IMG/VR virus record: IMGVR_UViG_3300045999_010033
Coordinates: 1-64,000 of that record
From: a virus
Length of the DNA stretch: 64,000 bases
Direction: 5' to 3' (one strand)
Made by a program: the position numbers and the translations under genes. The notes below the pieces were generated by a model. The model did not search any database, had not been told where the DNA came from, and was given only the letters and a program-made list of their open reading frames with translations. Shown here one piece after another: positions 9,607 through 46,687 of this stretch (position 1 is the stretch's first letter; every line of letters begins with the position of its first letter).

Positions 9607-9613
9607 AATTCGA

Positions 9614-10036: not shown

Positions 10037-10088
10037 ATTTGTTTTGTTTTATTTATTTAAGTTTTTGTTTTTAATTATAAGAATAGAA

Positions 10089-10487: not shown

Positions 10488-10622
10488 TTTATTTGTTTTT
10501 TGTTTGTTTTTATTTATTAGTTTTGCTCCTTATTCTCTTACCCTTTTATTTCGGAGCTGGCCTGCTTATCCTCGCCCTTTCGGACTGATACGAGTTTCTC
10601 AAGGGCACAGGTAGTTTTATAT

Positions 10623-11210: not shown

Positions 11211-11227
11211 AGTAACTTTTTTATTTA

Positions 11228-11542
11228 TTAATCCATAGGAGATACCTTCGCTTCACCATCTAATGCTGCTTCATATCCTTCACGCCAAGAGATATCTTTT
11301 TCTTCCCAAATAGCATCAACCAATTCAATCATTTTCTCATCTTCAAGCTCCAATGAATAAAGCAAATCGGAAGTTTCTTTACTTACGTGCAGTATTCCAC
11401 CATCATCATCGGATTCGCCGGCACCATCGTTATATGCCTCATCCAATAGGGAATCAACGAGAATCATTACTTGTTCGGTTTCCTCACCAGTGAAACGTTG
11501 TCCAATAACCGTCTGCAATACATCGTACTTTTTACTATCCAT
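11228..11542 (-). CDS. hypothetical acidic protein
   Basis: ORF track. Confidence 0.5.
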   Translation of the reverse strand: MDSKKYDVLQTVIGQRFTGEETEQVMILVDSLLDEAYNDGAGESDDDGGILHVSKETSDLLYSLELEDEKMIELVDAIWEEKDISWREGYEAALDGEAKVSPMD

Positions 11543-12069
11543 TTTATTTGTTTTTATTTGTTTTCGTTTTTTCTGAAATCACCATACATTCCGACGAGTA
11601 TGATTGTCGGAATTATTATCACCCACCATTTCCAATTCATTACGGTGATGTTAGCAATGCTCATAGATGAGCCGAGCCATATGGACCATCCATACCTTTT
11701 AAGAAACTCTATCATTTATTTATTTTTTATTTCGTTATCAATATCTTCGAATGTAATGTCTTCATCCGCCGGCCGGAAGGTAGCAATCCATAACAGCCCC
11801 ATAAACACCGCTGGTAAAATTAGTTCACTCATTATTTTCTATTAATTCGGTTAGAGATAGCAATCAGTAAGAGGACGATTAGAAACAGAAGAAAGTTAGT
11901 CATATAGATTTATATTTGTTTTTATTAATCGGCCCAACCATCGTATTTGATGTGGGGAATTTCGGTAGCTTTCACTCTGCGAATCTTGCGGTTACGCATC
12001 TTTTTATACCACTTACCACTACGTTTAGTATTACCGTGTTTAGAAATTTGTTCAGCTTTTATTGCCATA

Positions 12070-12264
12070 TTATATTACGATTATTGTATCTTCAGCTTCA
12101 CTTTGTCCAAGCAGATAACCTGCTTTGAATCCTTTAACGAATGCCTCATAGGATATGATGCCATCATCTATTCGTTTGAATATCTCAAGCGCTTTCAGCT
12201 CTATGATATCATCACGCTTTGTGTTTCGTATGTACGTTTGTTTTTTTGATTTATCTTCACTCAT
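12070..12264 (-). CDS. hypothetical protein
   Basis: ORF track. Confidence 0.4.
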   Translation of the reverse strand: MSEDKSKKQTYIRNTKRDDIIELKALEIFKRIDDGIISYEAFVKGFKAGYLLGQSEAEDTIIVI

Positions 12265-12283
12265 ATGTTTTTATTTTTATTTG

Positions 12284-12376
12284 TAGTCAGGACAGGATTC
12301 GAACCTGTACAAAGTTATTTACTATTACCTTTGCCAGCTCGGATGCTGGTGTGTCTACCTATTTCACCACCTGACC
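12284..12376 (-). tRNA. class-II tRNA-like element (acceptor GGTCAGG/CCTGACT, D-arm, long V-arm, T-arm ACAGG-TTCGAAT-CCTGT; anticodon loop non-canonical 6 or 8 nt)
   Basis: Manual fold; one of three related copies (also 51344 and 52019). Confidence 0.5.
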
Positions 12377-12387
12377 GAACCATCCGA

Positions 12388-12765
12388 TTAGTTATCGGAG
12401 AAATCAATTCCACCGAGGATGCTATCCCCGTCGTTCATACGTGCAATCTTCTCTTTGGCATTCACACGCATTTGTTTCATAACTTCACGAAGTGACCCGC
12501 CATCTGTCATTTCATTAACACGTTCCCACGCGGCATCAATCTTCATTTGAAGAAACTCGCGAAGCGGTTTGTTTTGTGGTTCATCGTTGAGCTCCTCAAT
12601 GAAGTCCTCAAGTGATGCAACCGTTGCCATCCGAAGAGCGAGCGATTCCGTGCTATCCGGCGAATCGGCTGTAATAACGTTAGCGAGTACCATCGCCAGC
12701 TTTACACGTTGCTCATCCATTTCATTAATCAATCCCAGAATTCCACCAATGTTTTCGATATTCAT
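12388..12765 (-). CDS. hypothetical protein
   Basis: ORF track. Confidence 0.5.
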   Translation of the reverse strand: MNIENIGGILGLINEMDEQRVKLAMVLANVITADSPDSTESLALRMATVASLEDFIEELNDEPQNKPLREFLQMKIDAAWERVNEMTDGGSLREVMKQMRVNAKEKIARMNDGDSILGGIDFSDN

Positions 12766-12767
12766 AA

Positions 12768-13094
12768 TTAACCGTTTAATTTAGGTTTAAGTGTATTTAT
12801 TAATTCAGTTTCGATTCGGTGTGCTTCGGCTTTACCACGTACCACCTGAAGTACGTTCACTTCATATACTACATTCTCCTCGCCATCCCAACGTCTCATA
12901 TCACGATACAACGGCCAGTCCTTTTCCCATTCGATGCGGGCCCGGCTCACATGCTTATGGAAACGATTGATGGCTGACCATTTGAATGCCCTACCTTTAG
13001 CGACTGTAATACCAATGTATTGTTTGTTATTAATCGTATTGGTGATAAGGTATATCACGTGGTTTCTATCACTTCGTTTCTTCCTCATGCTCAT
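12768..13094 (-). CDS. GIY-YIG nuclease family protein
   Basis: 'VIYLITN...KQYIGIT' GIY-YIG signature near N-terminus; 108 aa. Confidence 0.6.
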   Translation of the reverse strand: MSMRKKRSDRNHVIYLITNTINNKQYIGITVAKGRAFKWSAINRFHKHVSRARIEWEKDWPLYRDMRRWDGEENVVYEVNVLQVVRGKAEAHRIETELINTLKPKLNG

Positions 13095-13279
13095 CCTAAT
13101 TTGATTTGTTTAGCTATCCACATCTTCCGATGAATCTTTCCGAACTTTGAACGTTCCGGCATATGTTTCAATCGACGGAAGTAGTAGTGTTTTCTTTCGC
13201 CCGTGTCGTATCGGGCACCGTTCCAATATTTACTCATAGTTACCTCGCATAGAACGCTACCCATTCTGCTTGTTTCCAA
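13091..13279 (-). CDS. hypothetical protein
   Basis: ORF track. Confidence 0.35.
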   Translation of the reverse strand: METSRMGSVLCEVTMSKYWNGARYDTGERKHYYFRRLKHMPERSKFGKIHRKMWIAKQIKLG

Positions 13280-13482
13280 GGGATATCATTTTGAGTACCT
13301 GCTCTCCATCCTGCACCTAATACCGATTTACGATTGGAGTGCCTCCCACGGATTTGGACGGCGGTTACACCATGCTCACGCTTCAACATTTCGCGGAACT
13401 CATTGATACCCTTCACATCATACATCGGAAAGGAACACAAATACTTTGAGGAACGATTCGGAATGTTTTTTGGAATATTCAT
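13240..13482 (-). CDS. hypothetical protein
   Basis: ORF track; overlaps previous ORF. Confidence 0.35.
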   Translation of the reverse strand: MNIPKNIPNRSSKYLCSFPMYDVKGINEFREMLKREHGVTAVQIRGRHSNRKSVLGAGWRAGTQNDIPWKQAEWVAFYAR

Positions 13483-13499
13483 ATATTATTTTTATATTG

Positions 13500-13736
13500 T
13501 TATTGATTACCACCTAACCACACCATAACACCAGCGTACATCTCAGCCCTCTGAAGTTCTTTCAAAACAAGGCGAGGAAGCCGTTTACGTTTCCACTTCC
13601 ATCTGAATCGGAACGCTTTAGTCCTTCGGAGTGCTTCAGCGGGTTGTTCATTCTCCACACATTCCCATACGGCCATAAGCTCTAACCACATTTGTTCGTT
13701 GGTATTCATATTTACTTTTTTAAAGGTTATCTTCAC
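13500..13736 (-). CDS. hypothetical protein
   Basis: ORF track. Confidence 0.4.
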   Translation of the reverse strand: MKITFKKVNMNTNEQMWLELMAVWECVENEQPAEALRRTKAFRFRWKWKRKRLPRLVLKELQRAEMYAGVMVWLGGNQ

Positions 13737-13951
13737 GCAGTAGCGGCGAGTGCCCTTTTAGCGGCGAGGAACGTTTTGGCCAGAGCCGTTTGATTCTTTA
13801 CGAATGTTTTGGCATCTTTCATAGATACGAAACGTTTAACAACTCCCTTAGCCACTTTCACTTCGTACACCCAATAACGATCGGGTACAAAGTTATTATC
13901 TGCGAGGCGGAGAGTGCGGATGGCTTTCTTAATATTCATTTTCGTGCTCAT
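13733..13951 (-). CDS. hypothetical basic protein
   Basis: ORF track. Confidence 0.4.
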   Translation of the reverse strand: MSTKMNIKKAIRTLRLADNNFVPDRYWVYEVKVAKGVVKRFVSMKDAKTFVKNQTALAKTFLAAKRALAATA

Positions 13952-14010
13952 AATCAGGAATTAATAATGTTATATAATAGTAATAGTAATAGAGAAAGAA
14001 AGGGAGTGGA

Positions 14011-14421
14011 TTAGATGTTAGCGATAATCCAATCGGCCTGAGCCTTATTCCGAACGTTGAAAAGTTCCTTCAAACCTTTACGAATTTCGGAATGGAATTT
14101 TTTCGGAATCACACCCATTTTAGTCGGGAACTCACGAATGAAGTCACGCATACCCAGTTCCTCATCACGGAACATATCAAAGAATTTGCGAGCCTTCACA
14201 ATCTCGCTCTTAGATTTACATTCGATTGTGGTTACACGGCCATTCCAATGTTTGAACGTAACCGTGGCGGATATCTTACCGCCCTTACGCTGCGGAATTT
14301 TTGAACCCGCGAAGTTTTTAACCGGATTAGCAGCGGCCCTCTCAAGGATAGAAGGCGAAGAAGTGGATAAGCGGAAATCTTGGAATTGTAACGTACCTTT
14401 CATATTAGAGTTTTTTATCAT
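14011..14421 (-). CDS. hypothetical protein (downstream of conserved promoter repeat copy A)
   Basis: ORF track; conserved upstream repeat at 14430-14570. Confidence 0.5.
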   Translation of the reverse strand: MIKNSNMKGTLQFQDFRLSTSSPSILERAAANPVKNFAGSKIPQRKGGKISATVTFKHWNGRVTTIECKSKSEIVKARKFFDMFRDEELGMRDFIREFPTKMGVIPKKFHSEIRKGLKELFNVRNKAQADWIIANI

Positions 14422-14429
14422 ATCACCAC

Positions 14430-14570
14430 CTCATTTGGGGATACTCCCCAAAGTTAAGGCTTATTTTTCATACTACAATGGGCTTTTTGATAAAAGTTTT
14501 CGAAATTTTTCGGGGTTTTGTTAGAAATTATCTAATGCCCCTTGATAATCAACGGCTTATGCTTCCCTGA
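14430..14570 (-). promoter_or_regulatory. conserved upstream repeat copy A (TAACTTTG -7-like element, GTTAGAAATTATCTAA and TTGATAATCAACG palindromes)
   Basis: About 130 nt conserved with 32505-32662 and 48945-49100, each immediately upstream of a minus-strand gene start. Confidence 0.6.
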
Positions 14571-14988
14571 ATATCAATGACTTACAAGGTTTTTTATAAC
14601 CAATTGATCCTCAATCTCTTATGTATGGTATCCATATAGTATAGATAAAGTATTCAATATCAACGCTTTGCGATTTTTGTTAGATATTTTCTAACTCAAC
14701 ACGATGTTTCATTGAATATTTTCTAACATTATATCCAAATCATTAAATATTTTCTAAACGGCCCATCCATTCACTTCGGCCGGTATGTATTCCTTTATAT
14801 TCATTTTGTGGCATGGCCTTATATTCATTTTTCATGTGAGGCAATCCCTTATATTTATTTTTTTTCAGCGATGGCGACGTGGGTGGGATTTTGGCTACAT
14901 ATCCCCTATCCTTTGATACCATAATTGTTTTATCTACGATTATGGAATATCACATTCGTTTTGATAGAGATGATTCGTTTTAACATGG

Positions 14989-15282
14989 TTATAGGAGTCT
15001 ATCCAATATCCCCTTAATACCTTCAGGTGTTATTTCGGATAGTTTCAATATAAATGTACGCGAAGGTATCACGTATCCATCTTTACTTGCCACTTCCATT
15101 TCGTACATAGAACCCCCATCCGCGGAGATTCTGCTCATCGCTATGTTCAACCAAACCCCGCTACTACCATGATATGCTGATATCCATTGGTATCGGTTAG
15201 GAGTTATTGTAAGTGTGGGTAGGGGAATGCCGATGGTATCATGTAGTATTAACTTATGTGGGTTATTTATAGTTAGTCTCAT
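14989..15282 (-). CDS. LTI-N-family paralog (family C, 1 of 11)
   Basis: N-terminal M..LTINN.HKL motif shared by 11 tandem genes. Confidence 0.5.
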   Translation of the reverse strand: MRLTINNPHKLILHDTIGIPLPTLTITPNRYQWISAYHGSSGVWLNIAMSRISADGGSMYEMEVASKDGYVIPSRTFILKLSEITPEGIKGILDRLL

Positions 15283-15392
15283 ATAATTGGGGGAGTATCT
15301 TGTATGTGTATTATATTATATGGGAGAGTATTCTTTTCTTATTACTACTACTATTACTATATAGATTGGAGGGGTTATTAATAGAATTATTA

Positions 15393-15950
15393 TTAGTGTA
15401 TTCCGAATCGCTGCTGCCAATAAGGTCGTAACACATTCAGCCCTATCGTATGTTCTAATGTATGCGTTGAGAATGCCGTCATTATATGCGATTTGAATGG
15501 AAGGGGTAGGGCATAGTTAGATGTTGGGTCCAGTTTCGGAATGTATCCATCATCGCTCATCAGTAGATACAGTTCCGATATCAGGGGTAACGGAGTGTCC
15601 AAATGGTGTAGCGGCATATTCCATTCCTTATAAACAGAAGTATGTGGTTGAGCCGCACCGTTGTGTATTCGGTGATGGGAAATGGATAGTCCTGCATAAC
15701 GTGTTCCATCGGAGTAGTAGAATGGTTCTCTGTTCATGTAAAGTTTATACATTACAACAGTTCCAGCTGCGGTTGGTTCGGATTCGAATATTATTATGTA
15801 ATATTGAGCGGCATCGGATTCGTATATCTTTAGATTGACTACCGGTCCTAATATTACATTTATTATGTGTCCTAGTTTATCTATATTATGTATTGTCAAT
15901 CTATTACTCATAAGTTTTTTTATTAGTGTATTCCGAATTGATTTTACCAA
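15393..15950 (-). CDS. family C paralog 2
   Basis: Paralogy (..LTIHNIDKL). Confidence 0.5.
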   Translation of the reverse strand: MVKSIRNTLIKKLMSNRLTIHNIDKLGHIINVILGPVVNLKIYESDAAQYYIIIFESEPTAAGTVVMYKLYMNREPFYYSDGTRYAGLSISHHRIHNGAAQPHTSVYKEWNMPLHHLDTPLPLISELYLLMSDDGYIPKLDPTSNYALPLPFKSHIMTAFSTHTLEHTIGLNVLRPYWQQRFGIH

Positions 15951-16351
15951 TAAGATGATAACATTTGTTTACTTATTCTATTTGGTAGGTAATCATCGTG
16001 CTTAACCAGTCTTGCAATCACTTCTGCTAATGGATTGGGTTTGGTTAAAGTAGTTAAGTACATTTTAAATTCTCTTATTTTAGGTAAGGGATTCAATTGG
16101 CCATCCTCAACATTATGTGTAGTGAATCGCATTCTAATATAAGGTTTGCCACTTGGGGATACCAATATGGTCCTTTCTATGTTTAAACTATGTTGCTTTG
16201 CGTATTTACCTTCTGCCGTATATTCGTTAAATGCTATCCAATATCTATCTTGGTCACTTCCGAAAAAAGGTGGTGATATCATGTCACCCATTTTAAAATA
16301 AATGGCACTTACCAATTTATCCATATTATATATGGTCAGCTTTTTACTCAT
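15944..16351 (-). CDS. family C paralog 3
   Basis: MSKKLTIYNMDKL. Confidence 0.5.
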   Translation of the reverse strand: MSKKLTIYNMDKLVSAIYFKMGDMISPPFFGSDQDRYWIAFNEYTAEGKYAKQHSLNIERTILVSPSGKPYIRMRFTTHNVEDGQLNPLPKIREFKMYLTTLTKPNPLAEVIARLVKHDDYLPNRISKQMLSSYW

Positions 16352-16353
16352 AC

Positions 16354-16785
16354 TTATTTAATTACATTTATTAATATGGGATGTTTACGCAAAAAGGATT
16401 TCTTATCGTATTCGATTGATGTTTTGCATTGTGGATAGTAATCATCGTCTATTATCATACTCCATATATCATCAATCAAATCGTATGGATATTTTAGTTT
16501 CAATAAAGCCATAGGCCATCGGTAGTTCAGAATGGGGTTTTGTTCTTTGAATATAGATAAAGTAATATACACACATGGTATCCCATCTATATCGGTCGGT
16601 TCTCTATCAATAGAAAATATATAAACCCGTCCATTTACCTTTTCCATAATAAATGCGTATTCCAACTCAGTCGTTTTTGAACGAATATCTAAAAGTTTGT
16701 CATCATCTTCGAAATAATAGTGCGACATTCCACCTAATATGTTAATCAAATACATTTTATTGTATATGGTTATTTTCTTACTCAT
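16354..16785 (-). CDS. family C paralog 4
   Basis: MSKKITIYNKMYL. Confidence 0.5.
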   Translation of the reverse strand: MSKKITIYNKMYLINILGGMSHYYFEDDDKLLDIRSKTTELEYAFIMEKVNGRVYIFSIDREPTDIDGIPCVYITLSIFKEQNPILNYRWPMALLKLKYPYDLIDDIWSMIIDDDYYPQCKTSIEYDKKSFLRKHPILINVIK

Positions 16786-16789
16786 ATCT

Positions 16790-17227
16790 TTATATTGAAA
16801 AACTATGACTGATATTATTCATTATTGGATTAGTATTGCCCAAATTTACTCTCATCTTCGGAATGTGGTCCTCACGACGCACCATAGTTAGTAAGTTAGC
16901 CGTAATGGGCCAATGGTCTTTTAATGATGGTAAGGCTATAGGGTATGTTCTCCTATTACGAAGTTTTGATAATACATCGGTTGTAGCTAGCTTGATATTG
17001 ATATACTTTATCGGGTGGGATGCCGATGCTGTATCTATTTGTATATTCCGAAATATAAAAAGTTCGTGTTTTTTGATTACAGTTCCCATATCATCTGCCT
17101 CTTCAAAGTATAACCAATAATACGTATCGCATTCGAGGGTACAGGTGTTATTAAACGTTAAAGGAAGTAGTGTCTTACCTTCGTCAAGTATTTTACTTAC
17201 ATTTAATATCGTCAACTTTTTACTCAT
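16790..17227 (-). CDS. family C paralog 5
   Basis: MSKKLTILNVSKIL. Confidence 0.5.
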   Translation of the reverse strand: MSKKLTILNVSKILDEGKTLLPLTFNNTCTLECDTYYWLYFEEADDMGTVIKKHELFIFRNIQIDTASASHPIKYINIKLATTDVLSKLRNRRTYPIALPSLKDHWPITANLLTMVRREDHIPKMRVNLGNTNPIMNNISHSFSI

Positions 17228-17769
17228 ATATTTTGTGTCAATGAACTATTGGGGTGTATATTTACACTACTCGTAACATTCATACTACCACTTATATTAC
17301 CATAATACGCGGGATTAACTATTTTTTTTGAATACCGCGAGGATACACTCTGTCTTGGTGTAAACGGTCCATTTAGTATTGTTGATATACTAGCAGATGT
17401 ACTCCCACTAAACATGGGTATGAAATTCTCATCATCAATCATTCCCTTTATTACATGTCCCAACACATCGGGGGCATACAATGATTCGATTGGCATTAAC
17501 CAAGTGCGTGGATTTTTAACGGTAAACGCCCGGTCTCTATATTCTAATCGAATTAGACAATTATCAGTATGATCAAATGGGTCTACACGAATTATCCTAT
17601 CTATTATAAGCCACCACTGTCCTAATACTTTATCATCATACGCACTCCAAAACAATTTATACTCATCCGGATAAACAATCACATTACGATTACGTCCATC
17701 TTCGACTGGAATAGTAGGGAATACTTTTTCTAGATTATTTATATTTAGTAACTTATTCATTGGTTTCAA
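17224..17769 (-). CDS. family C paralog 6
   Basis: MNKLLNINNLEKV. Confidence 0.5.
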   Translation of the reverse strand: MKPMNKLLNINNLEKVFPTIPVEDGRNRNVIVYPDEYKLFWSAYDDKVLGQWWLIIDRIIRVDPFDHTDNCLIRLEYRDRAFTVKNPRTWLMPIESLYAPDVLGHVIKGMIDDENFIPMFSGSTSASISTILNGPFTPRQSVSSRYSKKIVNPAYYGNISGSMNVTSSVNIHPNSSLTQNI

Positions 17770-17771
17770 AA

Positions 17772-18155
17772 TTAAACTCCACGTGGAATGTAGTCCTCTA
17801 CTCCTGCCATATTTAAAATTTCAGATACCAATCGGACGTAATTCTTTAATTTGGATATGGGTATATTAAATCGACGTGTATGAGCAATCGGATTTGTACT
17901 TCCATCTACGATTTCATTTGTATTGAAACCTATCGTAACACATCGTATCGAATCTGGACTTATATGCTGTATATACCTGCTTATGTTTACTCTACACTCT
18001 TTTATTTTAATCCCATCATTTGTTCGACATTCAAAGTATATCCAATAGAAATCTCTATCTTCTCCGCAATGGAAATTGTAAAAGTTGTCATGTGCATATG
18101 TTCGACAGGCGTGACATGCCTTCTCTATATTATTTATAGTCAATATATTGCTCAT
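17772..18155 (-). CDS. family C paralog 7
   Basis: MSNILTINNIEKA. Confidence 0.5.
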   Translation of the reverse strand: MSNILTINNIEKACHACRTYAHDNFYNFHCGEDRDFYWIYFECRTNDGIKIKECRVNISRYIQHISPDSIRCVTIGFNTNEIVDGSTNPIAHTRRFNIPISKLKNYVRLVSEILNMAGVEDYIPRGV

Positions 18156-18160
18156 ATCCT

Positions 18161-18595
18161 TTAAAGTCTTTTTAATGTTTTTAAGGCTACCTTACGAGAG
18201 AGATTGAGGTGGTCGTATTCCGTTTTCACTTTGGATTTGGGATTGATATCGTATGACGTATCCATTTTAATTAAATCCATTACTAATTCAAATGGGTCAT
18301 TCAATAGGTGCAATCCTAGTTTCCATTCTCTCACAAATTGAGGTTGCATCTGCGGTTTAGTAAGTAACCGTAACCATATACATGGGTGGCCGGTATCAAC
18401 ATCCATTTCTATGAATCTATATATGCGCAATACATAATCAATGGTCTCCCTATTGTTATTAGACATGAATATCATTCTGTATGAATCGTGTTCATCAATG
18501 ATTGGCCCAACCGTTATACCGCCTCTCATGCTGTTCATCAGTGCCAACAGTTTATGTGGATTGTTTATAGTTATTAACTTTTTCATTGGTGTCAA
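18161..18595 (-). CDS. family C paralog 8
   Basis: MKKLITINNPHKLL. Confidence 0.5.
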   Translation of the reverse strand: MTPMKKLITINNPHKLLALMNSMRGGITVGPIIDEHDSYRMIFMSNNNRETIDYVLRIYRFIEMDVDTGHPCIWLRLLTKPQMQPQFVREWKLGLHLLNDPFELVMDLIKMDTSYDINPKSKVKTEYDHLNLSRKVALKTLKRL

Positions 18596-18597
18596 AA

Positions 18598-18954
18598 TTA
18601 AAATGGCAGATCAACATTCCATTCCAAATATTCTTTTATAGCGATAACAAATGCATATGGGTTTAATATGTTTTTTGTTTGGATATCAAGTGCTGCTAAC
18701 TTTTTGGCATCATTTGCATTGTATCCATTGAATCTTATTTTTGCGGGCATTGTTGGTTCGAAGGTATGGGGCTCGATACACCATGGTCCTAACTTTGTTG
18801 AAAAGCGATTCATTCGTATAATGTAATGCTCATTTTTATACTCCACTTTAAACACATAATCTTTATCTTCTTCTATTAAGAATTGCACTATTACATTATC
18901 CGTCCAATATTGTCCTATCTTTCCTACACCATCTATAATCACTCGCGTTTTCAT
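18598..18954 (-). CDS. family C paralog 9 (divergent)
   Basis: Position in array; weak N-terminal similarity. Confidence 0.4.
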   Translation of the reverse strand: MKTRVIIDGVGKIGQYWTDNVIVQFLIEEDKDYVFKVEYKNEHYIIRMNRFSTKLGPWCIEPHTFEPTMPAKIRFNGYNANDAKKLAALDIQTKNILNPYAFVIAIKEYLEWNVDLPF

Positions 18955-18970
18955 AAACTTTTGAATATTA

Positions 18971-19291
18971 CTATTTACTACAATCTTCCATAAACTTTTC
19001 CAAGCAAGTGATAAAACCTTCCGGCCGGTGCATTAATATCATATAATTTAGAACTATGGTCTTTCCTGCTATAAATGTACCCAATTTTATTTTGTATGGG
19101 TGACGGTGCAGAAAGAGAGCTGGTGCTATTTCTACATCACGCATTAACGATACATTGTATAGTGTGCCTTTCCATTTCAGAAAGATGTCATAGGAACGTT
19201 CCATTTCTACTACCTCAATTACAGATAAGTTTTCTGTCCAAAGTTCGGAATATTTAAGTTTACGTATTCCATTTATTGTTAGCTTCCCCAT
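18971..19291 (-). CDS. family C paralog 10
   Basis: MGKLTINGIRKLK. Confidence 0.5.
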   Translation of the reverse strand: MGKLTINGIRKLKYSELWTENLSVIEVVEMERSYDIFLKWKGTLYNVSLMRDVEIAPALFLHRHPYKIKLGTFIAGKTIVLNYMILMHRPEGFITCLEKFMEDCSK

Positions 19292-19294
19292 ATC

Positions 19295-19588
19295 TTATAT
19301 ATTCGGCATCATTTCAGCAATTGTGTTTACAACCCCTGCTAATTTATCCGGTGATAATAATTCTGATTTAGAAATTTTATCCTGCCATAGACCACAAGAT
19401 ACATTATACGTTTCATCTATGTTTGGCGCTCTACTCAATTTCAATTCATACCACTTATTCCTATGCCCTTTTAGATAAAAAAGAATAATATAACAATCAT
19501 CCTTTATTTGAACTGCGGAAGTTACTACATTACTATGATTAATCCTGTCGGTAATACTCCCGATGTTTTCTATTGTAAGCATAATCAA
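19295..19588 (-). CDS. family C paralog 11
   Basis: MIMLTIENIGSI. Confidence 0.5.
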   Translation of the reverse strand: MIMLTIENIGSITDRINHSNVVTSAVQIKDDCYIILFYLKGHRNKWYELKLSRAPNIDETYNVSCGLWQDKISKSELLSPDKLAGVVNTIAEMMPNI

Positions 19589-20910
19589 TATTTGAATCCA
19601 ATTCGTGTAGGTTCTTCACTCTTATACTCTGCTTCGTTTATATTATAAATTTCGGTAAGGGTCATTGGTGTAGTAGTCGTATGACTGATACCCAAATGAT
19701 TTATCAAATTTTGTGCATCATCAGCAGGAAGTGCATCAAATTTGTGTTCAGCAATCAAACGACCTTTACGAAGTAGTGCCGTATCAATTTTTCGTTTATC
19801 CATATTGAATGTTGCTACAATCTGAATGTTAAGAATGTCAGAAAGAATACCATCGGTTAGGTTTAGGATATTAGATACACCCGTCGAACCATTTGTGTTC
19901 CTATCGGTAATAACACGTTCCGCATCTTCGATAAACAGAACGGAGTCCGAGTTCTGAATAAGAAACGGAGTCATTTCCGGCGATGTAATGAAGTCCGCAA
20001 GGTATGGTGGAATAAATAGGACACGCTTACCTTCTATCTTAGAAGCAAGATATTTAAGGTAGTGAGTCTTTCCAGTGCCAGGTACACCATGCAGTAGAAC
20101 CAGCCCTTTACCTTTTGTTTTGTTTAACTGTGTAATAATCTTTGTATGGATTGGAACGAAGTCCTTCCCATAGTTCAATTGAATATCCAATGTAGTTTGG
20201 GGTAGTTCAAATGGTGCAGTAGTATAACCACGTTGGGTTGACATAACCAAATGTACATTGTTAATTTTAACCTTTAGCTTTCTGAAGGCTGATTTCATAA
20301 TATCAACTGCCTTTTGATATTCGGCAACATCTCCATTAGAATGTACATAACAATATCCATTATCTCTATCAACTCGATTAGTGTTTTTGTATTCAATTGG
20401 ACTGAGTGATATTACAATATAACCCGATTTTGTTTTCTTTTCTAAAATATACTCAGTTGTCCAGTGCTTTTTATCAATAGCACAATCCTTTGAAAATATA
20501 ACATTGTAACCATTAGCTATTAATCCATCGTATGCTTTTGCACTATCGAAGCCGGTATCCATATCCGATTCGGCTTCAAAGAAGTGTGTTATAACATTGC
20601 CGGTTTCAGTATAAATGTAATTGCTTATTGGGAACGACCCGGCCTCTACTGGTTTATAAAATGTACTATTAGTAACGGGCAATGTTGTCATTGAATGTAG
20701 TTTTTCTTCCAACCTAAATAATTTGCTTGACTCTTCTCCACTTTCTATCATTGATTCCATTTTACTCAAATTTTTTATAAACTCACGCGTATCGGTTCTA
20801 TCGAGATGTGGCTCGGTATGTATTTTCTCAGCTAAATTCATCGTATCCATAATGATTGATTTACTCAAAGATACGAAAATTTCCGTAAAAAACAAAATCC
20901 CTTTATTCAA
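19585..20910 (-). CDS. classic AAA-family ATPase
   Basis: Walker A 'GVPGTGKT', Walker B 'LFIED', second region of homology 'ALLRKGRL'. Confidence 0.6.
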   Translation of the reverse strand: MNKGILFFTEIFVSLSKSIIMDTMNLAEKIHTEPHLDRTDTREFIKNLSKMESMIESGEESSKLFRLEEKLHSMTTLPVTNSTFYKPVEAGSFPISNYIYTETGNVITHFFEAESDMDTGFDSAKAYDGLIANGYNVIFSKDCAIDKKHWTTEYILEKKTKSGYIVISLSPIEYKNTNRVDRDNGYCYVHSNGDVAEYQKAVDIMKSAFRKLKVKINNVHLVMSTQRGYTTAPFELPQTTLDIQLNYGKDFVPIHTKIITQLNKTKGKGLVLLHGVPGTGKTHYLKYLASKIEGKRVLFIPPYLADFITSPEMTPFLIQNSDSVLFIEDAERVITDRNTNGSTGVSNILNLTDGILSDILNIQIVATFNMDKRKIDTALLRKGRLIAEHKFDALPADDAQNLINHLGISHTTTTPMTLTEIYNINEAEYKSEEPTRIGFKY

Positions 20911-21004
20911 AGGGATTCATTTTACTTTTTTCTATTTATACGTTTGGATATTTTTGCCATACGTTTTCTACTTTTAGCCTTTCGTTGGCGATGGGTAAGC
21001 GTTT

Positions 21005-21343
21005 TCATATCATGTATGGTTTAGCGTGTTTATTAACTATCATTTGCTCATTAACGTTTAACCCATCTTTGTATATAGTTGCTATCGGACGTTTATATTT
21101 ATCTAAATTTCTTGAGGATATTTTCACTTTATCGCCGGGTTTCAATATAGTTTCAAGATAAGCCTTAGCCTTTTGGGCCGATTCTTTTAAAATAGGGTCT
21201 TCCGACTTAAGTTCATCAGAATTTATACCATAGAAACGTATATTCGTTTCCCATGTCATATAAAATCCCAAATCAATTTTAGCTTTAATCGTATCGCCAT
21301 CTATTACTTTAATGATTTCTGCGTTGTAATTGTATAATTCCAT
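21005..21343 (-). CDS. staphylococcal-nuclease-like (thermonuclease) protein
   Basis: 'VIDGDTIK' SNase signature; 112 aa. Confidence 0.5.
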   Translation of the reverse strand: MELYNYNAEIIKVIDGDTIKAKIDLGFYMTWETNIRFYGINSDELKSEDPILKESAQKAKAYLETILKPGDKVKISSRNLDKYKRPIATIYKDGLNVNEQMIVNKHAKPYMI

Positions 21344-21364
21344 TTACGTTTTAGTATAAATATC

Positions 21365-21550
21365 TTATTCAACTACTTTTTGATATAGTTTTTGAATTAA
21401 TACCGTCGGAAGCATCATGGGCCATAAGAGCACCCATCCCAAAGGAAGAAGCCAATCGCCATCGGTATCAATCTTTCTGATTGCTCCATTTACAAAGGCG
21501 TATACAATACCACCTATAAACCAAATCATTGCTAATGTTTCTGTTGACAT
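21365..21550 (-). CDS. small membrane protein
   Basis: Two hydrophobic helices. Confidence 0.4.
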   Translation of the reverse strand: MSTETLAMIWFIGGIVYAFVNGAIRKIDTDGDWLLPLGWVLLWPMMLPTVLIQKLYQKVVE

Positions 21551-21560
21551 AATTTTTATT

Positions 21561-21800
21561 TTAATCGTTTATCGTTTCTAATTCTTCTATCTTGTTTACA
21601 AATATATATTCGTTTGTTTGTGTATTCTTAAATATGTGTTCTGCATTGTAGCACTTTTTTAATAGTTCTATCCCATCACTATCTAATTCTTTTTTTAGTT
21701 TTTCTGCTTTCAATACGTGGACCACTTCGTAAAGTATATCGTTTATCTTTGTAAGATTTGGTTTTCTCATTTCCAAAATATTTGTATAAGAATAATACAC
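21561..21800 (-). CDS. hypothetical protein
   Basis: ORF track. Confidence 0.4.
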   Translation of the reverse strand: MYYSYTNILEMRKPNLTKINDILYEVVHVLKAEKLKKELDSDGIELLKKCYNAEHIFKNTQTNEYIFVNKIEELETIND

Positions 21801-22108
21801 ACTGCTAAAAACAAAGTAAGTAATGTTTTTATAGTGAACGGCTCTTTAAAAAATATCTCTGTCAGAATTGTAAAGACAAATATACCAATAGCGAAACCTA
21901 TAAGACGAGATGGCCACACCTGTCCATCAAATGATAGGACAAAGCATTCAACTGATTTGATGTATAAGAATGTAAGTGGCAGAGATAGTAAGTATACTGC
22001 TATCGGATAGCGTTCATACCAATTCCATTTGATATTCCCTTGTAATTGGAAATATGTTAGTATTTGGGCAAGTATTGCGTAGCAAATGCCCACTCCTAAT
22101 TTACTCAT
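21767..22108 (-). CDS. integral membrane protein
   Basis: Multiple hydrophobic segments. Confidence 0.45.
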   Translation of the reverse strand: MSKLGVGICYAILAQILTYFQLQGNIKWNWYERYPIAVYLLSLPLTFLYIKSVECFVLSFDGQVWPSRLIGFAIGIFVFTILTEIFFKEPFTIKTLLTLFLAVCIILIQIFWK

Positions 22109-22124
22109 AACCTTTTTTATTTTA

Positions 22125-22310
22125 TTATTCGAAGTCTTCCTCTTCTTCTATGCCGTATCCACTATTAATGTCATCATTGTAAATGATATCTTCAATTTGT
22201 TCCGCATCTTCAAAAACACTATCTAACAATTTGTGATAAATGCCATCATCGTCAATGGACTTTAGATTTTCTTTTATTTTGCCCACTATCTTTAGTATTT
22301 CTTTTTTCAT
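22125..22310 (-). CDS. hypothetical acidic protein
   Basis: ORF track. Confidence 0.35.
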   Translation of the reverse strand: MKKEILKIVGKIKENLKSIDDDGIYHKLLDSVFEDAEQIEDIIYNDDINSGYGIEEEEDFE

Positions 22311-22635
22311 CCGTTTTAGATTTTTCTATAAGTATTTGCAAATCACGAATTTTCGCGCATAGTTCATATTCCTCTATCGAAAGAAAATAATTCATAGCTT
22401 TATCAAGTGTGATATCGGCGTTTTCTTTCCGAACAATAAGAACAATGTTTTCTACAAAATTTGTGATTAGAATAGCTTGTGTAAAATCTAAATTTTTGTT
22501 TATTAGTATTTCTATGTAACGAACTAACTCGGAATGTATAATATACCTATTGGCCTTCAACCAACTTGATATTGGTTGATTACCCAAATCAATGTGCAAC
22601 ACGGCCGGGTCATTTACTTCATCCGATTTTTTCAC
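22252..22635 (-). CDS. hypothetical protein
   Basis: ORF track; overlaps previous ORF, one of the two may be mis-called. Confidence 0.4.
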   Translation of the reverse strand: MKKSDEVNDPAVLHIDLGNQPISSWLKANRYIIHSELVRYIEILINKNLDFTQAILITNFVENIVLIVRKENADITLDKAMNYFLSIEEYELCAKIRDLQILIEKSKTDEKRNTKDSGQNKRKSKVH

Positions 22636-22855
22636 TACGTTTACTTTTTGAATTTAAGTATAAATAAGATAAAAAGAATAGAATTGAAATGGAATAAAAA
22701 ATTATATCGGTTTTCCAATATGACCCTGTCCAATCCAAAACAATTTTGAATAGTATATCGAACCCGAATGGATTGAAAAACATTGCTAACATCAGAAACG
22801 ATGTCTTTAACAATTCCATGTAATTTGTTTTTATTTGTTTTATTTTTACTCTCAC
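22619..22855 (-). CDS. small membrane protein
   Basis: Hydrophobic. Confidence 0.4.
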   Translation of the reverse strand: MRVKIKQIKTNYMELLKTSFLMLAMFFNPFGFDILFKIVLDWTGSYWKTDIIFYSISILFFLSYLYLNSKSKRSEKIG

Positions 22856-22930
22856 CCTCGTCCATTTGATTTGCGTTTCGTGAATAATACTATAACTTTA
22901 GTATAAGTATAATACATTATACAATACTAT

Positions 22931-23167
22931 CTATATTCCATCGGACGAATCATCTTCTCGCATTTCTTCTTCGTAAAGATTTGCCATTTGTATAACACCA
23001 TCTCTCCAAGTTTCTTCGGAAAACTGACATCCAATTGCCAATCTACGAAATACCTCCAGCAATTCATTTATATCCATATCTGAATATGCTTTTGTAATTT
23101 TAATTTCTTCGCCATATACATTTGCTGAAAATTCAGCTGGTGGATTCGGAAATCTATTTAAAATCAT
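22931..23167 (-). CDS. hypothetical protein
   Basis: ORF track. Confidence 0.45.
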   Translation of the reverse strand: MILNRFPNPPAEFSANVYGEEIKITKAYSDMDINELLEVFRRLAIGCQFSEETWRDGVIQMANLYEEEMREDDSSDGI

Positions 23168-23218
23168 AGTTTTGTTTTTTGTGGGGTCGGCGATATTACC
23201 GACCCCATTGTTATTGTA

Positions 23219-24169
23219 TTACTTATTCAAGTTCAAAATAAACCCACCACCATTATCCGATGTTACAACGCTTGGTACATTACTACCGCCTGCCCTCCAA
23301 GCTTCAATCCATTGTTGTTGGATAAGCATCGGTGTAAGAGTTTGCTGCTTCAATCGGTTTGATTCCGCTTCGGCCTTTGCTCGGGTCAGCATAGATTGTG
23401 CTTCACCTTCTGCTTGCGCCACTTTAATTTTGGCTTCAGCCTCAGCGGTTTTCACATCGTTCTCTGCTTTGAGAGCGGCTTGTACTGCATTGTTTTTAGC
23501 ATTGATTGCGTTTTTGAAAGTTTCAGGATAAATAAGGTTAGATGTAAACTGATTAACAATAAATCCTTCATTCAATAATTGTGTTTCCAAAATACGTCTT
23601 ACTTCAACTTCATAGTTTTGACGGTTTCCAATAAGCTCATCCGCCGTATATTTGTTAGTAGCCAGTCGGAACGCATCAAATACTGCGGTTTTCAAAAAGC
23701 CTTCTTCGATTTGATCCAAGCTTCTACGATACTTTGAAAAGATTTGAGGAACTTTCTCACGTTTTACCGAATAGTTAATAATAGGTGATACGTGGAACTC
23801 CGAACCATCCTTTGAGTTTACGATAAATGAATTATCACCGGTATATTCTTTGTGTTGAATAAATGTAGGGAACTCATAGATATTATGCGTAATCGGATTA
23901 TAGAATACCATACCGGTTACTTCGGTGACATCACTTACGCCTTTGTTATCACCATACAAATTCACTTTAACACCAACATGCCCTGCATCAATTCGTTCAC
24001 ACGATGCAAAAAGCAAAATAGAAATCAAAATACCAAGTACTGCTGCGAAAATAACCTTTACCATTTTTTTAATTTTTAATTGTTGTTTTAATTTTTCTTG
24101 TTTTATTTCTTCTTCTTGCTCTTTTTGTCGGCGAGCATACCTTTGTTCGAAACTTTCATAATTAGCCAT
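23219..24169 (-). CDS. SPFH/band-7 (prohibitin/HflK-like) membrane protein
   Basis: N-terminal TM helix, band-7 core, C-terminal coiled coil 'KVAQAEGEAQS...AKAEAESNRLKQQ'. Confidence 0.65.
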   Translation of the reverse strand: MANYESFEQRYARRQKEQEEEIKQEKLKQQLKIKKMVKVIFAAVLGILISILLFASCERIDAGHVGVKVNLYGDNKGVSDVTEVTGMVFYNPITHNIYEFPTFIQHKEYTGDNSFIVNSKDGSEFHVSPIINYSVKREKVPQIFSKYRRSLDQIEEGFLKTAVFDAFRLATNKYTADELIGNRQNYEVEVRRILETQLLNEGFIVNQFTSNLIYPETFKNAINAKNNAVQAALKAENDVKTAEAEAKIKVAQAEGEAQSMLTRAKAEAESNRLKQQTLTPMLIQQQWIEAWRAGGSNVPSVVTSDNGGGFILNLNK

Positions 24170-24673: not shown

Positions 24674-24883
24674 TTATATAAAAAGTTTAATTAATAAAAT
24701 AAAGTATATAAAGTTCGTTGGGCCAATAAACCAAAAGAACACATCCCTTCGGTTTTGGCGTTGTTCGGGTGTTTTAGAATCCAACATCCATTCTGCTATT
24801 TCACCAAAGTAAAATACTGAAATTATTGGAATCCACCAAATCCATTTTGTATTGTATAGTTCTTCATACATTTGATTTACCAT
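24674..24883 (-). CDS. WWIP-motif small membrane protein (paralog of 26464..26661)
   Basis: 'KWIWWIPIISVFYFGE' vs 'KWYWWIPIIGLYFIEE'. Confidence 0.5.
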   Translation of the reverse strand: MVNQMYEELYNTKWIWWIPIISVFYFGEIAEWMLDSKTPEQRQNRRDVFFWFIGPTNFIYFILLIKLFI

Positions 24884-25705: not shown

Positions 25706-26035
25706 TTATAAAAGTTTATTCCATACCAATCTTTCTGCTATGAATTTAAGGAAAGCGATAAATGTATCCGATGTCTTTATACTATCGAGATCAATAGATG
25801 CATCCTGAACAACATACGTTCCAACATTTCCGCTGCCTCTCTCACATTTTTTTACATTAAAAGAATTTACCTTCCAGTTAAACTCAAACCATAAAGCGTG
25901 TCCGTTAAATATATCATGCACATCTTCATATACCCATACATTATTATTCCATGTCTCTGCTTCAATACGGCATTCTACATTATCAATTCGGAATCTAGCA
26001 TCATGTATCTTGTTAAAGTTGTTAATAGTCACCAT
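25706..26035 (-). CDS. hypothetical protein
   Basis: ORF track. Confidence 0.45.
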   Translation of the reverse strand: MVTINNFNKIHDARFRIDNVECRIEAETWNNNVWVYEDVHDIFNGHALWFEFNWKVNSFNVKKCERGSGNVGTYVVQDASIDLDSIKTSDTFIAFLKFIAERLVWNKLL

Positions 26036-39327: not shown

Positions 39328-39633
39328 TTAATATGATTTTTTACCAAATATATTATCGAGTCGCGTTTTAAATAACTTATACGCGTTATCAATATTGAAC
39401 CACTCCGCGGATACATAGCTGCTATCTTCATACTTATACATGAATTTTCCCAAATCATCATCCCAGTGGTGTGGAGTTCGTTCTAAATGTAATTTCAGTA
39501 CGGAATCACAAGTTTGCATGGAAATGAAATCAAACGTATAGACATCGGGTGTAGTTGTAATCCGACACATACACGCACCAAAGTCTTTTGTAGTAAAGGC
39601 TTCGATATTTTTGATTGTAAGTCTATGTTTCAT
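39328..39633 (-). CDS. hypothetical protein
   Basis: ORF track. Confidence 0.45.
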   Translation of the reverse strand: MKHRLTIKNIEAFTTKDFGACMCRITTTPDVYTFDFISMQTCDSVLKLHLERTPHHWDDDLGKFMYKYEDSSYVSAEWFNIDNAYKLFKTRLDNIFGKKSY

Positions 39634-46009: not shown

Positions 46010-46348
46010 TTATTGTATAGATAAAAGATAAGTTTTTAATTTTTTCAAAACAACTTCGATGTTAAATGCTATTCGATATGGTCGTTTTAAACGGTGTTCA
46101 TCTATATTAATGTAAGTCACACGATGCCATCCCATAGCAAATAGCTGATATGTTCCATCGGAAAGGGGAGTTTTATATAAGATAACTTCCACAATCGGTC
46201 CGAAGGAGTTATTCTGTGCGTATGGTATATTTCTAAACCTAAATGCATAGCTAGGTCTACCTGCTACAAGCACTTCACCTACACTTTCTATTACGTGCCC
46301 ATCGCACTCCATTCCAACTGCCCTATCAATATTTTTTATGATTAACAT
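46010..46348 (-). CDS. hypothetical protein (paralog pair D, member 1)
   Basis: ML.IKNIDR..GM.C.G...YQLFAMGW..V. Confidence 0.5.
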   Translation of the reverse strand: MLIIKNIDRAVGMECDGHVIESVGEVLVAGRPSYAFRFRNIPYAQNNSFGPIVEVILYKTPLSDGTYQLFAMGWHRVTYINIDEHRLKRPYRIAFNIEVVLKKLKTYLLSIQ

Positions 46349-46357: not shown

Positions 46358-46687
46358 TTATTTGTGTGATTCAATCCAATGTTGTAACTTCTTCAATACA
46401 GTTTTAATTCTACCAGCCAAACAATGGGCATGACGTATGTCGGATTCATCAACGTAAATAAACGTTACTTTCTGCCATCCCATAGCAAATAGTTGATACT
46501 TTCCATCAGAATTAGGAACTCTCTCCAATACAACTTCAACGATTGGACCACGAAGGCTACTCTGAACCCAAGGTATATCAAATTTAAATGTGTATCTAGT
46601 TTTGGATGCGTTTTGTCCAGCATCCATTACATCAATCCCATTACAAAACATTCCGATAATCCTATCAATATTTTTTATAACTAGCAT
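46358..46687 (-). CDS. hypothetical protein (paralog pair D, member 2)
   Basis: Paralogy. Confidence 0.5.
   Translation of the reverse strand: MLVIKNIDRIIGMFCNGIDVMDAGQNASKTRYTFKFDIPWVQSSLRGPIVEVVLERVPNSDGKYQLFAMGWQKVTFIYVDESDIRHAHCLAGRIKTVLKKLQHWIESHK

What the first reader, a model, noticed from the sequence alone, without database searches (positions are those of the whole stretch)
14989..19588. Tandem array of 11 divergent paralogous genes (M..LTI-N..KL family)
Eleven consecutive minus-strand genes (97-185 aa) share an N-terminal signature (MSKKLTIYNMDKL, MSNILTINNIEKA, MGKLTINGIRKLK and similar). Their lengths vary and the rest of each protein is highly diverged. This is a hallmark of rapidly evolving host-interaction or anti-defence gene families in large phages. 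No catalytic motif is recognisable.
Basis: seen in the sequence. Interest (0 to 1): 0.65.

Follow-up and report, generated by a model that had tools for sequence, protein, structure and literature searches.

The report
Amplified small-protein family in jumbo phage
Eleven neighbouring genes in this uncultured giant phage are diverged copies of one small, non-enzymatic protein that has no annotation anywhere; related phages carry it in arrays of up to 15 copies, and its function is still unknown.

The parts
19295..19582 (-). g11, 95 aa (MLTIENIGS...). This is the canonical short form of the family and the first gene after the ATPase, with a 2-nt gap.
   Evidence: AF2 pLDDT 92.4, alpha-beta5-alpha. 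Leave-one-out E 1.6e-8. Foreign-only HMM E 5e-12.
18971..19291 (-). g10, 106 aa (MGKLTINGIRKLK...).
   Evidence: Pairwise with g9 E 2e-5. Leave-one-out E 2.7e-4. Foreign-only HMM E 1e-9.
18598..18954 (-). g9, 118 aa (MKTRVIIDGVGKIG...).
   Evidence: The L034 ortholog starts MSKRLTINGIEKI. Leave-one-out E 5.6e-5.
18161..18586 (-). g8, 141 aa from the ATG (MKKLITINNPHKL...); long form.
17772..18155 (-). g7, 127 aa (MSNILTINNIEKA...); long form.
17224..17760 (-). g6, 178 aa from the ATG (MNKLLNINNLEKV...). Long form with a Ser/Asn-rich C-terminal tail; orthologs keep the motif NGPFxPRxG..RYS.
16790..17227 (-). g5, 145 aa (MSKKLTILNVSKIL...); its start overlaps the end of g6 by 4 nt.
16354..16785 (-). 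g4, 143 aa (MSKKITIYNKMYL...). It carries an internal deletion in strain contig L001.
15944..16351 (-). g3, 135 aa (MSKKLTIYNMDKL...); the modelled long member.
15393..15911 (-). g2, 172 aa from the ATG (MSNRLTIHNIDKL...); absent from strain contig L001.
14989..15282 (-). g1, 97 aa (MRLTINNPHKL...). Short form, set 110 nt apart from g2; absent from L036.
   Evidence: Leave-one-out E 6.6e-11. Absence in L036.
15387..15433 (.). Direct repeat D5, copy 1, at the 3' end of g2. It is 81% identical to copy 2 and shares a 17-nt identical core.
   Evidence: The L001 deletion of g2 has its breakpoints in these repeats.
15917..15963 (.). Direct repeat D5, copy 2, at the 3' end of g3 plus the g3-g2 spacer.
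19585..20850 (-). Classical-clade AAA+ ATPase (about 421 aa from the ATG MDTMNLAE...). It lies immediately upstream and is probably the first gene of the same operon.
   Evidence: PF00004. Best PDB sequence matches are Afg2, Cdc48, Rpt and Bcs1. Synteny is conserved in L034, L036, L039 and L040.
20866..20918 (-). Hairpin terminator (20895-20918) followed by a TAnnTTTG box (TATCTTTG, 20866-20873) 16 nt before the ATPase start codon. This is the probable start of the ATPase-plus-array transcription unit.
   Evidence: The same layout occurs in L034 and L039, with compensatory changes in the hairpin stem.
46358..46687 (-). Dispersed family member, 109 aa (MLVIKNIDRIIG...); forms a tandem pair with 46010-46348.
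   Evidence: Foreign-only HMM E 8.7e-16..
46010..46348 (-). Dispersed family member, 112 aa (MLIIKNIDRAVG...).
   Evidence: Foreign-only HMM E 3.5e-13.
39328..39633 (-). Dispersed family member, 101 aa (MKHRLTIKNIEAF...).
   Evidence: jackhmmer E 3e-10. Foreign-only HMM E 1.5e-10.
25706..26035 (-). Probable dispersed family member, 109 aa (MVTINNFNKIHD...); the weakest of the four.
   Evidence: Foreign-only HMM E 2e-4. Motif match.

Best explanation
The array is a local expansion of a phage-specific, previously undescribed multigene family. I call it the MLTIxNIxKL family here.

Shown:
- Each gene encodes one small soluble domain, a two-layer alpha-beta5-alpha sandwich. Its first residues (Met-Leu-Thr-Ile, then an Asn that caps helix 1) belong to the fold.
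- The 11 genes sit with 2 nt between the ATPase stop and the first array gene.
- A conserved terminator-plus-promoter element precedes the ATPase.
- Copies are gained and lost by recombination between short repeats at gene ends.
- The copies then diverge quickly under relaxed, not abolished, purifying selection.

Inferred:
- The genes are probably transcribed together with the upstream classical AAA+ ATPase from a Bacteroidota-type promoter.
- The proteins are non-enzymatic binding modules. A constant core, including the N-terminal strand and helix, holds the fold, while variable surfaces and tails recognise different partners.
- The partners are most plausibly host proteins, such as defence or housekeeping factors that differ between host strains.
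- The array would then act as a repertoire of specific binders or inhibitors that the phage can expand, shrink and reshuffle.
For: Homology and family limits.

No enzyme or known family.

Phage-restricted and amplified:
- Only 19 hits to the long-form profile among 1.84 billion representatives.
- 386 unannotated clusters for the short form.
- Arrays of 9-15 genes in IMG/VR contigs, 24 of 49 pattern loci confirmed.
- No confirmed member among 120 pattern loci from cellular genomes.

Fast divergence against the flanks. dN/dS of 0.19-0.72 against 0.05-0.39.

Copy-number polymorphism, including a repeat-mediated g2 deletion.

Isoelectric points span 4.6-10.2, as expected for diversified surfaces.

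Operon signals.

Precedents for panels of specific inhibitors and for adaptive amplification in phages:
- T4 Ip1, Ip2 and Ip3 each block a different GmrSD (PMC12373910).
- Segmental amplification of T4 tifA overcomes toxIN (PMC9391042).
Against: - No target, interaction or phenotype is known, so the binder role rests only on fold class and evolutionary pattern.
- Gene-wide dN/dS is below 1, so diversifying selection is not demonstrated.
- Expression timing is unknown.
- The extreme conservation of the first ten residues across hundreds of otherwise divergent copies is more than most folds need. It could point to a shared partner or signal, as in rivals 1 and 2.
- The host assignment to Bacteroidota is only suggested by promoter-like motifs.
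Confidence: 0.4

Rival explanations
1. The proteins are packaged internal or ejected virion proteins. In this view the conserved N-terminal decapeptide is a capsid-targeting signal shared by a polymorphic set of cargo proteins that enter the host with the DNA, as with T4 internal proteins or the virion paralog families of phiKZ and SPN3US.
For: - The N-terminal block is 2-4 times better conserved than the rest across 87 divergent members.
- Most members start exactly at MLTI.
- T-even ip genes are recognised by just such an N-terminal signal and form polymorphic loci (PMC12373910).
- Giant-phage virions contain paralog families of 2-20 members (PMC5694885).
Against: - The motif has no conserved Glu or other candidate cleavage residue. 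Position 5 or 11 is E in only some members.
- AF2 places residues 1-13 inside the fold at pLDDT 81-93, running into helix 1, so it is not a detachable peptide.
- The bodies are homologous to each other, unlike T4 Ips.
- Neighbouring genes are nucleotide-metabolism and auxiliary genes, not morphogenesis genes.
- There is no Pfam match to the giant-phage inner-head family pfam12699 that SPN3US paralog family A resembles (PMC5694885).
Confidence: 0.15
2. The proteins are adaptors, regulators or substrates of the adjacent classical AAA+ ATPase. Each paralog would deliver a different client to the unfoldase, or cap it, and the conserved N-terminus would be the common docking element.
For: - The first array gene starts 2 nt after the ATPase stop and appears to be in the same operon.
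- This synteny is kept in L034, L036, L039 and L040.
- Arrays lie 1-5 kb from the ATPase homolog in L010, L011 and L059.
- The ATPase belongs to the Cdc48/Afg2/Rpt/Bcs1 unfoldase clade, which commonly uses adaptor proteins (established knowledge).
Against: - In the phages of L012 and L018 the arrays (13 and 27 copies) are not within 10 kb of the ATPase.
- Four window members are dispersed 6-27 kb away from it.
- The slot downstream of the ATPase holds unrelated cargo in other phages, including a different paralog family in L010 and L011. The adjacency may therefore reflect a plasticity hotspot.
Confidence: 0.12
3. The proteins are subunits of a homo- or hetero-oligomeric phage-built assembly. 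Paralogs would pair through their beta-sheets as CapZ alpha/beta or the RWD pair Spc24/Spc25 do, forming a scaffold in the infected cell rather than targeting host proteins.
For: The best structural matches are domains that heterodimerise with a paralog (CapZ alpha/beta, Spc25, Med14/Med17) or homodimerise (type III secretion chaperones). Many co-expressed paralogs would permit combinatorial pairing.
Against: - Structural assemblies normally need fixed stoichiometry and conserved interfaces. Here copy number differs between near-identical strains (9, 10 or 11) and members are lost without replacement.
- Divergence is far higher than for the flanking genes.
Confidence: 0.1
4. The expansion is largely neutral or selfish. 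Repeat-prone DNA duplicates by unequal recombination, and most copies are dispensable and decaying.
For: - Conserved 34-57-nt DNA repeats sit at gene 5' ends, and a repeat-flanked deletion is observed.
- g4 carries an internal deletion in L001.
- dN/dS is raised.
- The window holds several other tandem paralog sets.
Against: - All 11 reading frames are intact.
- dN/dS is below 1 for every gene, and often 0.2-0.5.
- The array persists, in partly conserved gene order, in phages whose ATPase is only 56% identical.
- The fold is predicted confidently for both the most divergent short member and a long member.
Confidence: 0.08

Closest known systems
T-even phage internal proteins (Ip1, Ip2, Ip3 and the polymorphic ip loci)
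   Same: Both are sets of small, non-essential-looking proteins recognised by a shared N-terminal signature, encoded in variable clusters. For T4, each protein inhibits a different variant of one host defence, GmrSD (PMC12373910).
   Different: - T4 Ips share only a 10-20-residue capsid-targeting peptide that the prohead protease cleaves off, and their bodies are unrelated (PMC5694885).
- Here the whole proteins are homologous.
- The N-terminus is part of the fold.
- No cleavage-type residue is conserved.
- Packaging has not been tested.
Virion paralog families of giant phages (phiKZ and SPN3US families A and B)
   Same: Both are lineage-specific families whose copy number varies from 2 to 20 between related giant phages (PMC5694885).
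   Different: Those proteins are larger, are detected in virions, often carry propeptides longer than 100 residues, and SPN3US family A resembles pfam12699. The present family has no Pfam match, is 95-178 aa long, and sits among auxiliary and nucleotide-metabolism genes.
Adaptive gene amplification in viruses (T4 dmd-tifA segmental amplification)
   Same: Both involve tandem copies generated by recombination at short homologies around a small inhibitor gene (PMC9391042). Here the g2 indel lies between 47-nt repeats.
   Different: The T4 amplifications are recent, identical copies that raise dosage. The copies here are old and only 15-30% identical, so any benefit would come from diversity rather than dosage.
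CapZ alpha/beta heterodimerisation domain, and RWD or type III secretion chaperone-like alpha+beta sandwiches
   Same: All share an alpha-beta5-alpha topology with an antiparallel sheet packed by an N-terminal and a C-terminal helix, and all have non-catalytic protein-binding roles.

Membership tests
T4-type internal proteins (capsid-targeting-sequence proteins) | An N-terminal 10-20-residue targeting peptide that ends at a prohead-protease site (Leu/Ile-x-Glu in T4). | tested here: not met
   The consensus M(xxx)LTIxN(I)xKL has no conserved Glu. Residues at the candidate positions vary among E, D, S, H, G and R.
T4-type internal proteins (capsid-targeting-sequence proteins) | The tag is separable from bodies that are otherwise unrelated. 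| tested here: not met
   The bodies are homologous. AF2 builds residues 1-13 into the domain at pLDDT 81-93.
T4-type internal proteins (capsid-targeting-sequence proteins) | The protein is physically packaged in the capsid and injected. | not testable with these tools
   This needs virion proteomics of a cultured relative, and none exists in INPHARED.
F-actin capping protein (CapZ alpha/beta) | Sequence membership in the Pfam capping-protein families and the three-domain architecture. | tested here: not met
   No Pfam hit at E<=1. The proteins consist only of the roughly 90-125-residue alpha-beta5-alpha unit.
F-actin capping protein (CapZ alpha/beta) | Fold of the alpha-beta5-alpha dimerisation domain. 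| tested here: met
Type III secretion class I chaperones (CesT/SycH-like) | Sequence family membership plus a secretion-system gene context. | tested here: not met
Giant-phage inner-head paralog family (pfam12699) | A match to the Pfam model. | tested here: not met
   No match for any of the 11 members.
KwaB (DUF4868, Kiwa defence) | A score above the family cut-off across the domain. | tested here: not met
   Only g4 and its ortholog hit, at 15 bits and E 0.0024, covering residues 3-59 against profile positions 129-186 of 320. None of the other members scanned individually hit. I treat this as chance.
DNA-mimic anti-restriction proteins (Ocr/ArdA type) | A strongly acidic protein surface. | tested here: not met
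   The array members have pI 5.7-9.5, and the wider family 4.6-10.2 with a median of 7.8.
Any curated family (Pfam, PHROGs, NCBIfam, PDB sequences) | A significant profile match. | tested here: not met
   All 386 related clusters are labelled 'hypothetical' and carry no Pfam domain.

The most novel reading that the evidence does not exclude
The invariant N-terminal decapeptide may be a common handle, while the rest of the small sandwich is a diversifying recognition surface. The handle could serve for loading into the capsid, or for docking on the phage AAA+ unfoldase. The phage clade would then carry a combinatorial, antibody-like repertoire of dozens of binders per genome, which either ride in with the DNA or feed chosen host proteins to an unfoldase. 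Repeat-mediated cassette gain and loss would let the repertoire track host-strain diversity.
Probability: 0.12. Interest if true: 0.8.

Novelty: new member of a known kind. Interest (0 to 1): 0.5.

Why it matters
Large phages are full of small genes of unknown function, and tandemly amplified families are good places to look for new host-manipulation or counter-defence proteins. This family has several properties that make it worth following up:
- It is unannotated in every library I searched.
- It is confined to a clade of uncultured jumbo phages.
- It reaches dozens of copies per genome.
- It has a confidently predicted fold.

It is therefore a well-defined target for structural and interaction screens. 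If the members prove to be specific inhibitors, the family would be a new source of anti-defence proteins. It would also be an example of repertoire-style diversification in phages. If they are ATPase adaptors, they would reveal how a phage-encoded unfoldase selects its clients.

Tried and rejected
- Near-identity DNA search of the locus against deposited phages gave no match.
- tblastn of a long and a short member against the same collection gave no match.
- Pfam, PHROGs, NCBIfam and PADLOC scans gave nothing meaningful. The single KwaB hit of g4 was traced and dismissed.
- The profile search against PDB sequences gave nothing below E 0.6.
- Foldseek against viral predicted structures (BFVD) gave nothing below E 1e-3.
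- The afdb50 fold library was unavailable.
With g11 alone it found no relative in IMG/VR.
- Pairwise hhalign between subfamilies using window sequences alone was only weakly supportive, with P 5e-4 to 0.013. Homology of g1, g9, g10 and g11 was settled only after adding relatives.
- jackhmmer started from one L010 member did not converge on the family.
- The sigma-70 promoter scan was below shuffle expectation and uninformative.
- A cadherin-repeat protein (P0031) in the exhaustive search is a repeat artefact.
- I considered a DNA-mimic role and rejected it on pI.
- I considered the idea that these are immunity proteins for the upstream SNase. I did not favour it, because L010 has its array but no SNase homolog in the roughly 21-kb locus.


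Full report
**What is at the locus.** The window is a fragment of an uncultured jumbo phage.
- It carries 24 tRNA genes and a tmRNA.
- It also carries NAMPT, RNA and DNA ligases, and a MoxR/CobT-like pair.
- It has no near relative among deposited phage genomes.
- Its proteins occur on a 221-kb metagenome contig.

Between 14989 and 19582, eleven minus-strand ORFs follow each other. Gaps run from -4 to 16 nt, except 32 nt before g2 and 110 nt before g1. Using the family register M-x-x-x-L-T-I-x-N, the likely starts of g2, g6, g8 and g11 are internal ATGs. This gives lengths of 95-178 aa.

**Is the family real?**
- Seven long members (g2-g8) match each other over their full length in BLASTP, with E-values of 1e-16 to 1e-4.
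- With window sequences alone, the short members g1, g9, g10 and g11 were linked only weakly.
- Relatives settled the question. An exhaustive profile search of 1.84 billion representatives found only 19 hits. About ten of these were diverged homologs with the same N-terminus.
- The contigs of those homologs carry further arrays that mix short and long forms.
- With these sequences, leave-one-out profiles recover g1 (6.6e-11), g11 (1.6e-8), g9 (5.6e-5) and g10 (2.7e-4). No unrelated ORF scores above them.
- The cleanest test uses a profile built from 81 IMG/VR sequences and no window sequence. It ranks the 11 array genes and four dispersed genes (46358, 46010, 39328, 25706) as the top 15 of 213 window ORFs. 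The E-value jumps from 0.032 to 0.24 after the fifteenth.

**The N-terminal signature.**
- The first ten alignment columns have a mean pairwise identity of 0.57 in the array and 0.53 in 87 diverse members. Elsewhere the values are 0.11-0.29.
- A motif regex, written after seeing the data, matches 0.2% of shuffled ORFs but 10 of 11 array genes.
- Identical amino acids use identical codons somewhat more often in this block (0.61 against 0.45). The pairs are not independent, so I give this little weight.
- DNA repeats of 34-57 nt at 66-82% identity mark the 5' ends of the genes.

**Structure.**
- AlphaFold2 with family alignments gave confident models for g3 (135 aa, pLDDT 86.8, pTM 0.81) and g11 (95 aa, pLDDT 92.4, pTM 0.82).
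- Both models have an N-terminal extended segment and helix, five antiparallel strands and a C-terminal helix. The long forms add loops and a low-confidence tail.
- The conserved MLTIxN..KL segment runs from the extended N-terminus into helix 1 and is modelled with high confidence. It is therefore part of the domain.
- These are non-catalytic interaction folds. The scores show resemblance in fold class, not family membership.
- Foldseek against viral predicted structures found nothing significant.

**Distribution.**
- Pfam, PHROGs, NCBIfam, PADLOC and PDB sequences gave no meaningful match.
- A degenerate DNA pattern for MLTIxNIxKL retrieved 49 IMG/VR loci, and 24 of them contain profile-confirmed members.
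- These members usually sit in tandem arrays of 9-15 genes. Two arrays of 13 and 14 genes lie on one 101-kb contig.
- The same pattern retrieved 120 loci from bacterial and archaeal genomes, and none contained a confirmed member.
- A profile search of the 5.8-billion-protein collection returned 386 clusters, all labelled hypothetical and none with a Pfam domain. The candidate pool in that search is limited by a word index.
- tblastn against deposited phage genomes found nothing.
- The family therefore looks specific to a clade of uncultured jumbo phages. The 127-178-aa long form seen in g2-g8 is a rarer offshoot of a roughly 100-aa canonical form.

**Context and transcription.**
- The gene upstream is a 421-aa AAA+ ATPase of the classical clade. 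Its best PDB sequence matches are Afg2, Cdc48, Rpt and Bcs1.
- A staphylococcal-nuclease homolog precedes the ATPase.
- The ATPase stop and the g11 start are 2 nt apart.
- Upstream of the ATPase lies a hairpin followed by a T-run, and then a TAnnTTTG box 16 nt before the start codon. The same layout occurs in L034 and L039, with compensatory changes in the stem.
- TAnnTTTG is the Bacteroidota -7 promoter element (my own knowledge). In this window 19 of its 55 minus-strand occurrences fall in the 17% of sequence that is non-coding.
- I infer one transcription unit from the ATPase through the array, and a Bacteroidota host. Both points are inferences.
- The order nuclease, ATPase, array is conserved in L034, L036, L039 and L040.
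- Arrays lie 1-5 kb from the ATPase homolog in L010, L011 and L059.
- In the phages of L012 and L018 the arrays lie more than 10 kb from the ATPase.
- The slot downstream of the ATPase holds unrelated genes in other phages.

**Evolution.**
- Between the window and L034, the nuclease and ATPase are 87% and 85% identical in amino acids. In contrast g11, g9, g10 and g6 are 58%, 45%, 40% and 39% identical, and the remaining members that still hit are at most 34%.
- Between closer strains (window against L036), Nei-Gojobori dN/dS is 0.19-0.72 for array genes and 0.05-0.39 for ten flanking genes. Selection is therefore purifying but relaxed, or mixed with positive selection at some sites. It never exceeds 1 gene-wide.
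- Copy number differs between strains: 11 in L003, 9 in L001, 10 in L036, at least 12 in L034 plus L035, and at least 13 in L040.
- In L001, g2 is missing precisely between two 47-nt direct repeats at the 3' ends of g3 and g2. In the same contig g4 has an internal deletion.
- L036 lacks g1.

**Interpretation.** The following points are shown directly:
- This is a real family, apparently restricted to phages.
- Its members share a single fold.
- It is tandemly amplified.
- It diverges quickly.
- Its copy number is polymorphic through recombination.

Function is inferred. The fold class, the lack of any catalytic signature, the wide spread of isoelectric points and the evolutionary pattern fit a repertoire of small binding or inhibitor proteins best. 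Known phage precedents include the T4 internal proteins, each specific for one GmrSD variant (PMC12373910), and adaptive amplification of the ToxN inhibitor tifA (PMC9391042). I give this reading about 0.4.

The unusually conserved N-terminus keeps two other readings open. One is a packaging signal, as in T4 internal proteins (PMC5694885). The lack of a conserved cleavage residue and the integration of the segment into the fold argue against it. The other is a docking element for the neighbouring ATPase, against which the incomplete linkage argues. Oligomeric scaffold subunits and largely neutral expansion are less likely.

**Verdict.** This is a new family within a known kind of phenomenon, namely the lineage-specific amplified accessory families of large phages.

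Noticed in passing
window 7238-9057 (minus strand): A second tandem array: seven paralogous genes of 69-81 aa (motif G.EWL..LPYK.QV.FLKN ... F.W..TPEGH.YW), interrupted by an unrelated 66-aa ORF at 8213-8413.
   Followed up: partly
window 9163-10487 (minus strand): Three tandem paralogs of 132-147 aa that share a conserved C-terminal half (...AWMDE.G...DENEFKVWQ.LT..E..SMSK.DKV.AIA.LLK).
   Followed up: no
window 2217-3044; L010 11562-15406; L011 11561-15153: A different family with its own conserved N-terminus (MI[KR]LKD[IL]LxE). It has one 275-aa member in the window. In L010 and L011 an array of 6-7 members lies downstream of the ATPase after one intervening gene, close to the position the studied array occupies in the window. 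The LxE ending resembles a T4-type prohead-protease site.
   Followed up: partly
window 24877-25449 and 26120-26458: Paralog pair with a C-terminal SWIM-like zinc-finger pattern (CxCP....C.H). The pair flanks the dispersed family member at 25706-26035.
   Followed up: no
window 42828-57994: A block of 24 tRNA genes ending in a tmRNA (57661-57994) with tag peptide GNTYANAEYAVAA. Phage-encoded tmRNA is uncommon.
   Followed up: no
window 12283-12376 and 12768-13094: ARAGORN reports a tRNA-like gene with an abnormal two-base anticodon. It lies near an ORF that matches GIY-YIG and other homing-endonuclease PHROGs, so it may be a disrupted or intron-containing tRNA.
   Followed up: no
window, non-coding stretches on the minus strand (e.g. 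14449-14456, 20866-20873, 32535-32542, 48975-48982): TAnnTTTG boxes, often TAACTTTG, lie 15-47 nt upstream of start codons, and 19 of 55 occurrences fall in the 17% of sequence that is non-coding. This suggests Bacteroidota-type promoters and hence a Bacteroidota host. A SusC-like TonB-dependent receptor is encoded on the related contig L044 (7999-11259).
   Followed up: partly
window 20919-21004 (minus strand); L039 about 7080-7165: A short, very basic reading frame (...RQRKAKSRKRMAKISKRINRKK*) between the nuclease gene and the terminator hairpin is conserved in L034, L036 and L039. It is not among the genes called for L001, L034, L036 or L039.
   Followed up: no
L036 compared with window 9163-24169: Strong mosaicism between strains. 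Genes upstream of the ATPase are 71-78% identical in DNA, while the ATPase is 94% and the genes downstream of the array are 85-97% identical. This indicates recombination breakpoints around the ATPase-array unit.
   Followed up: partly
window 17224-17400 (g6 tail), end of g5; P0025-P0028: Long-form members of the g6 type share a conserved C-terminal tail motif (NGPFxPRxG..[TS]RYS ... FYG.I). Several, including g5, end in ISHS[FI]x[IP]. This may be a short linear motif.
   Followed up: no
L034 2661-3023: A 4HBT thioesterase gene is inserted inside the array of a related phage, between the g11 and g10 orthologs. The same gene lies downstream of the ATPase in L012-L021.
   Followed up: no
L061 9080-10567; L083 2789-3667: Related jumbo-phage contigs encode a tryptophan-halogenase homolog (E 2e-113) and a UvdE UV-endonuclease next to their arrays.
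   Followed up: no
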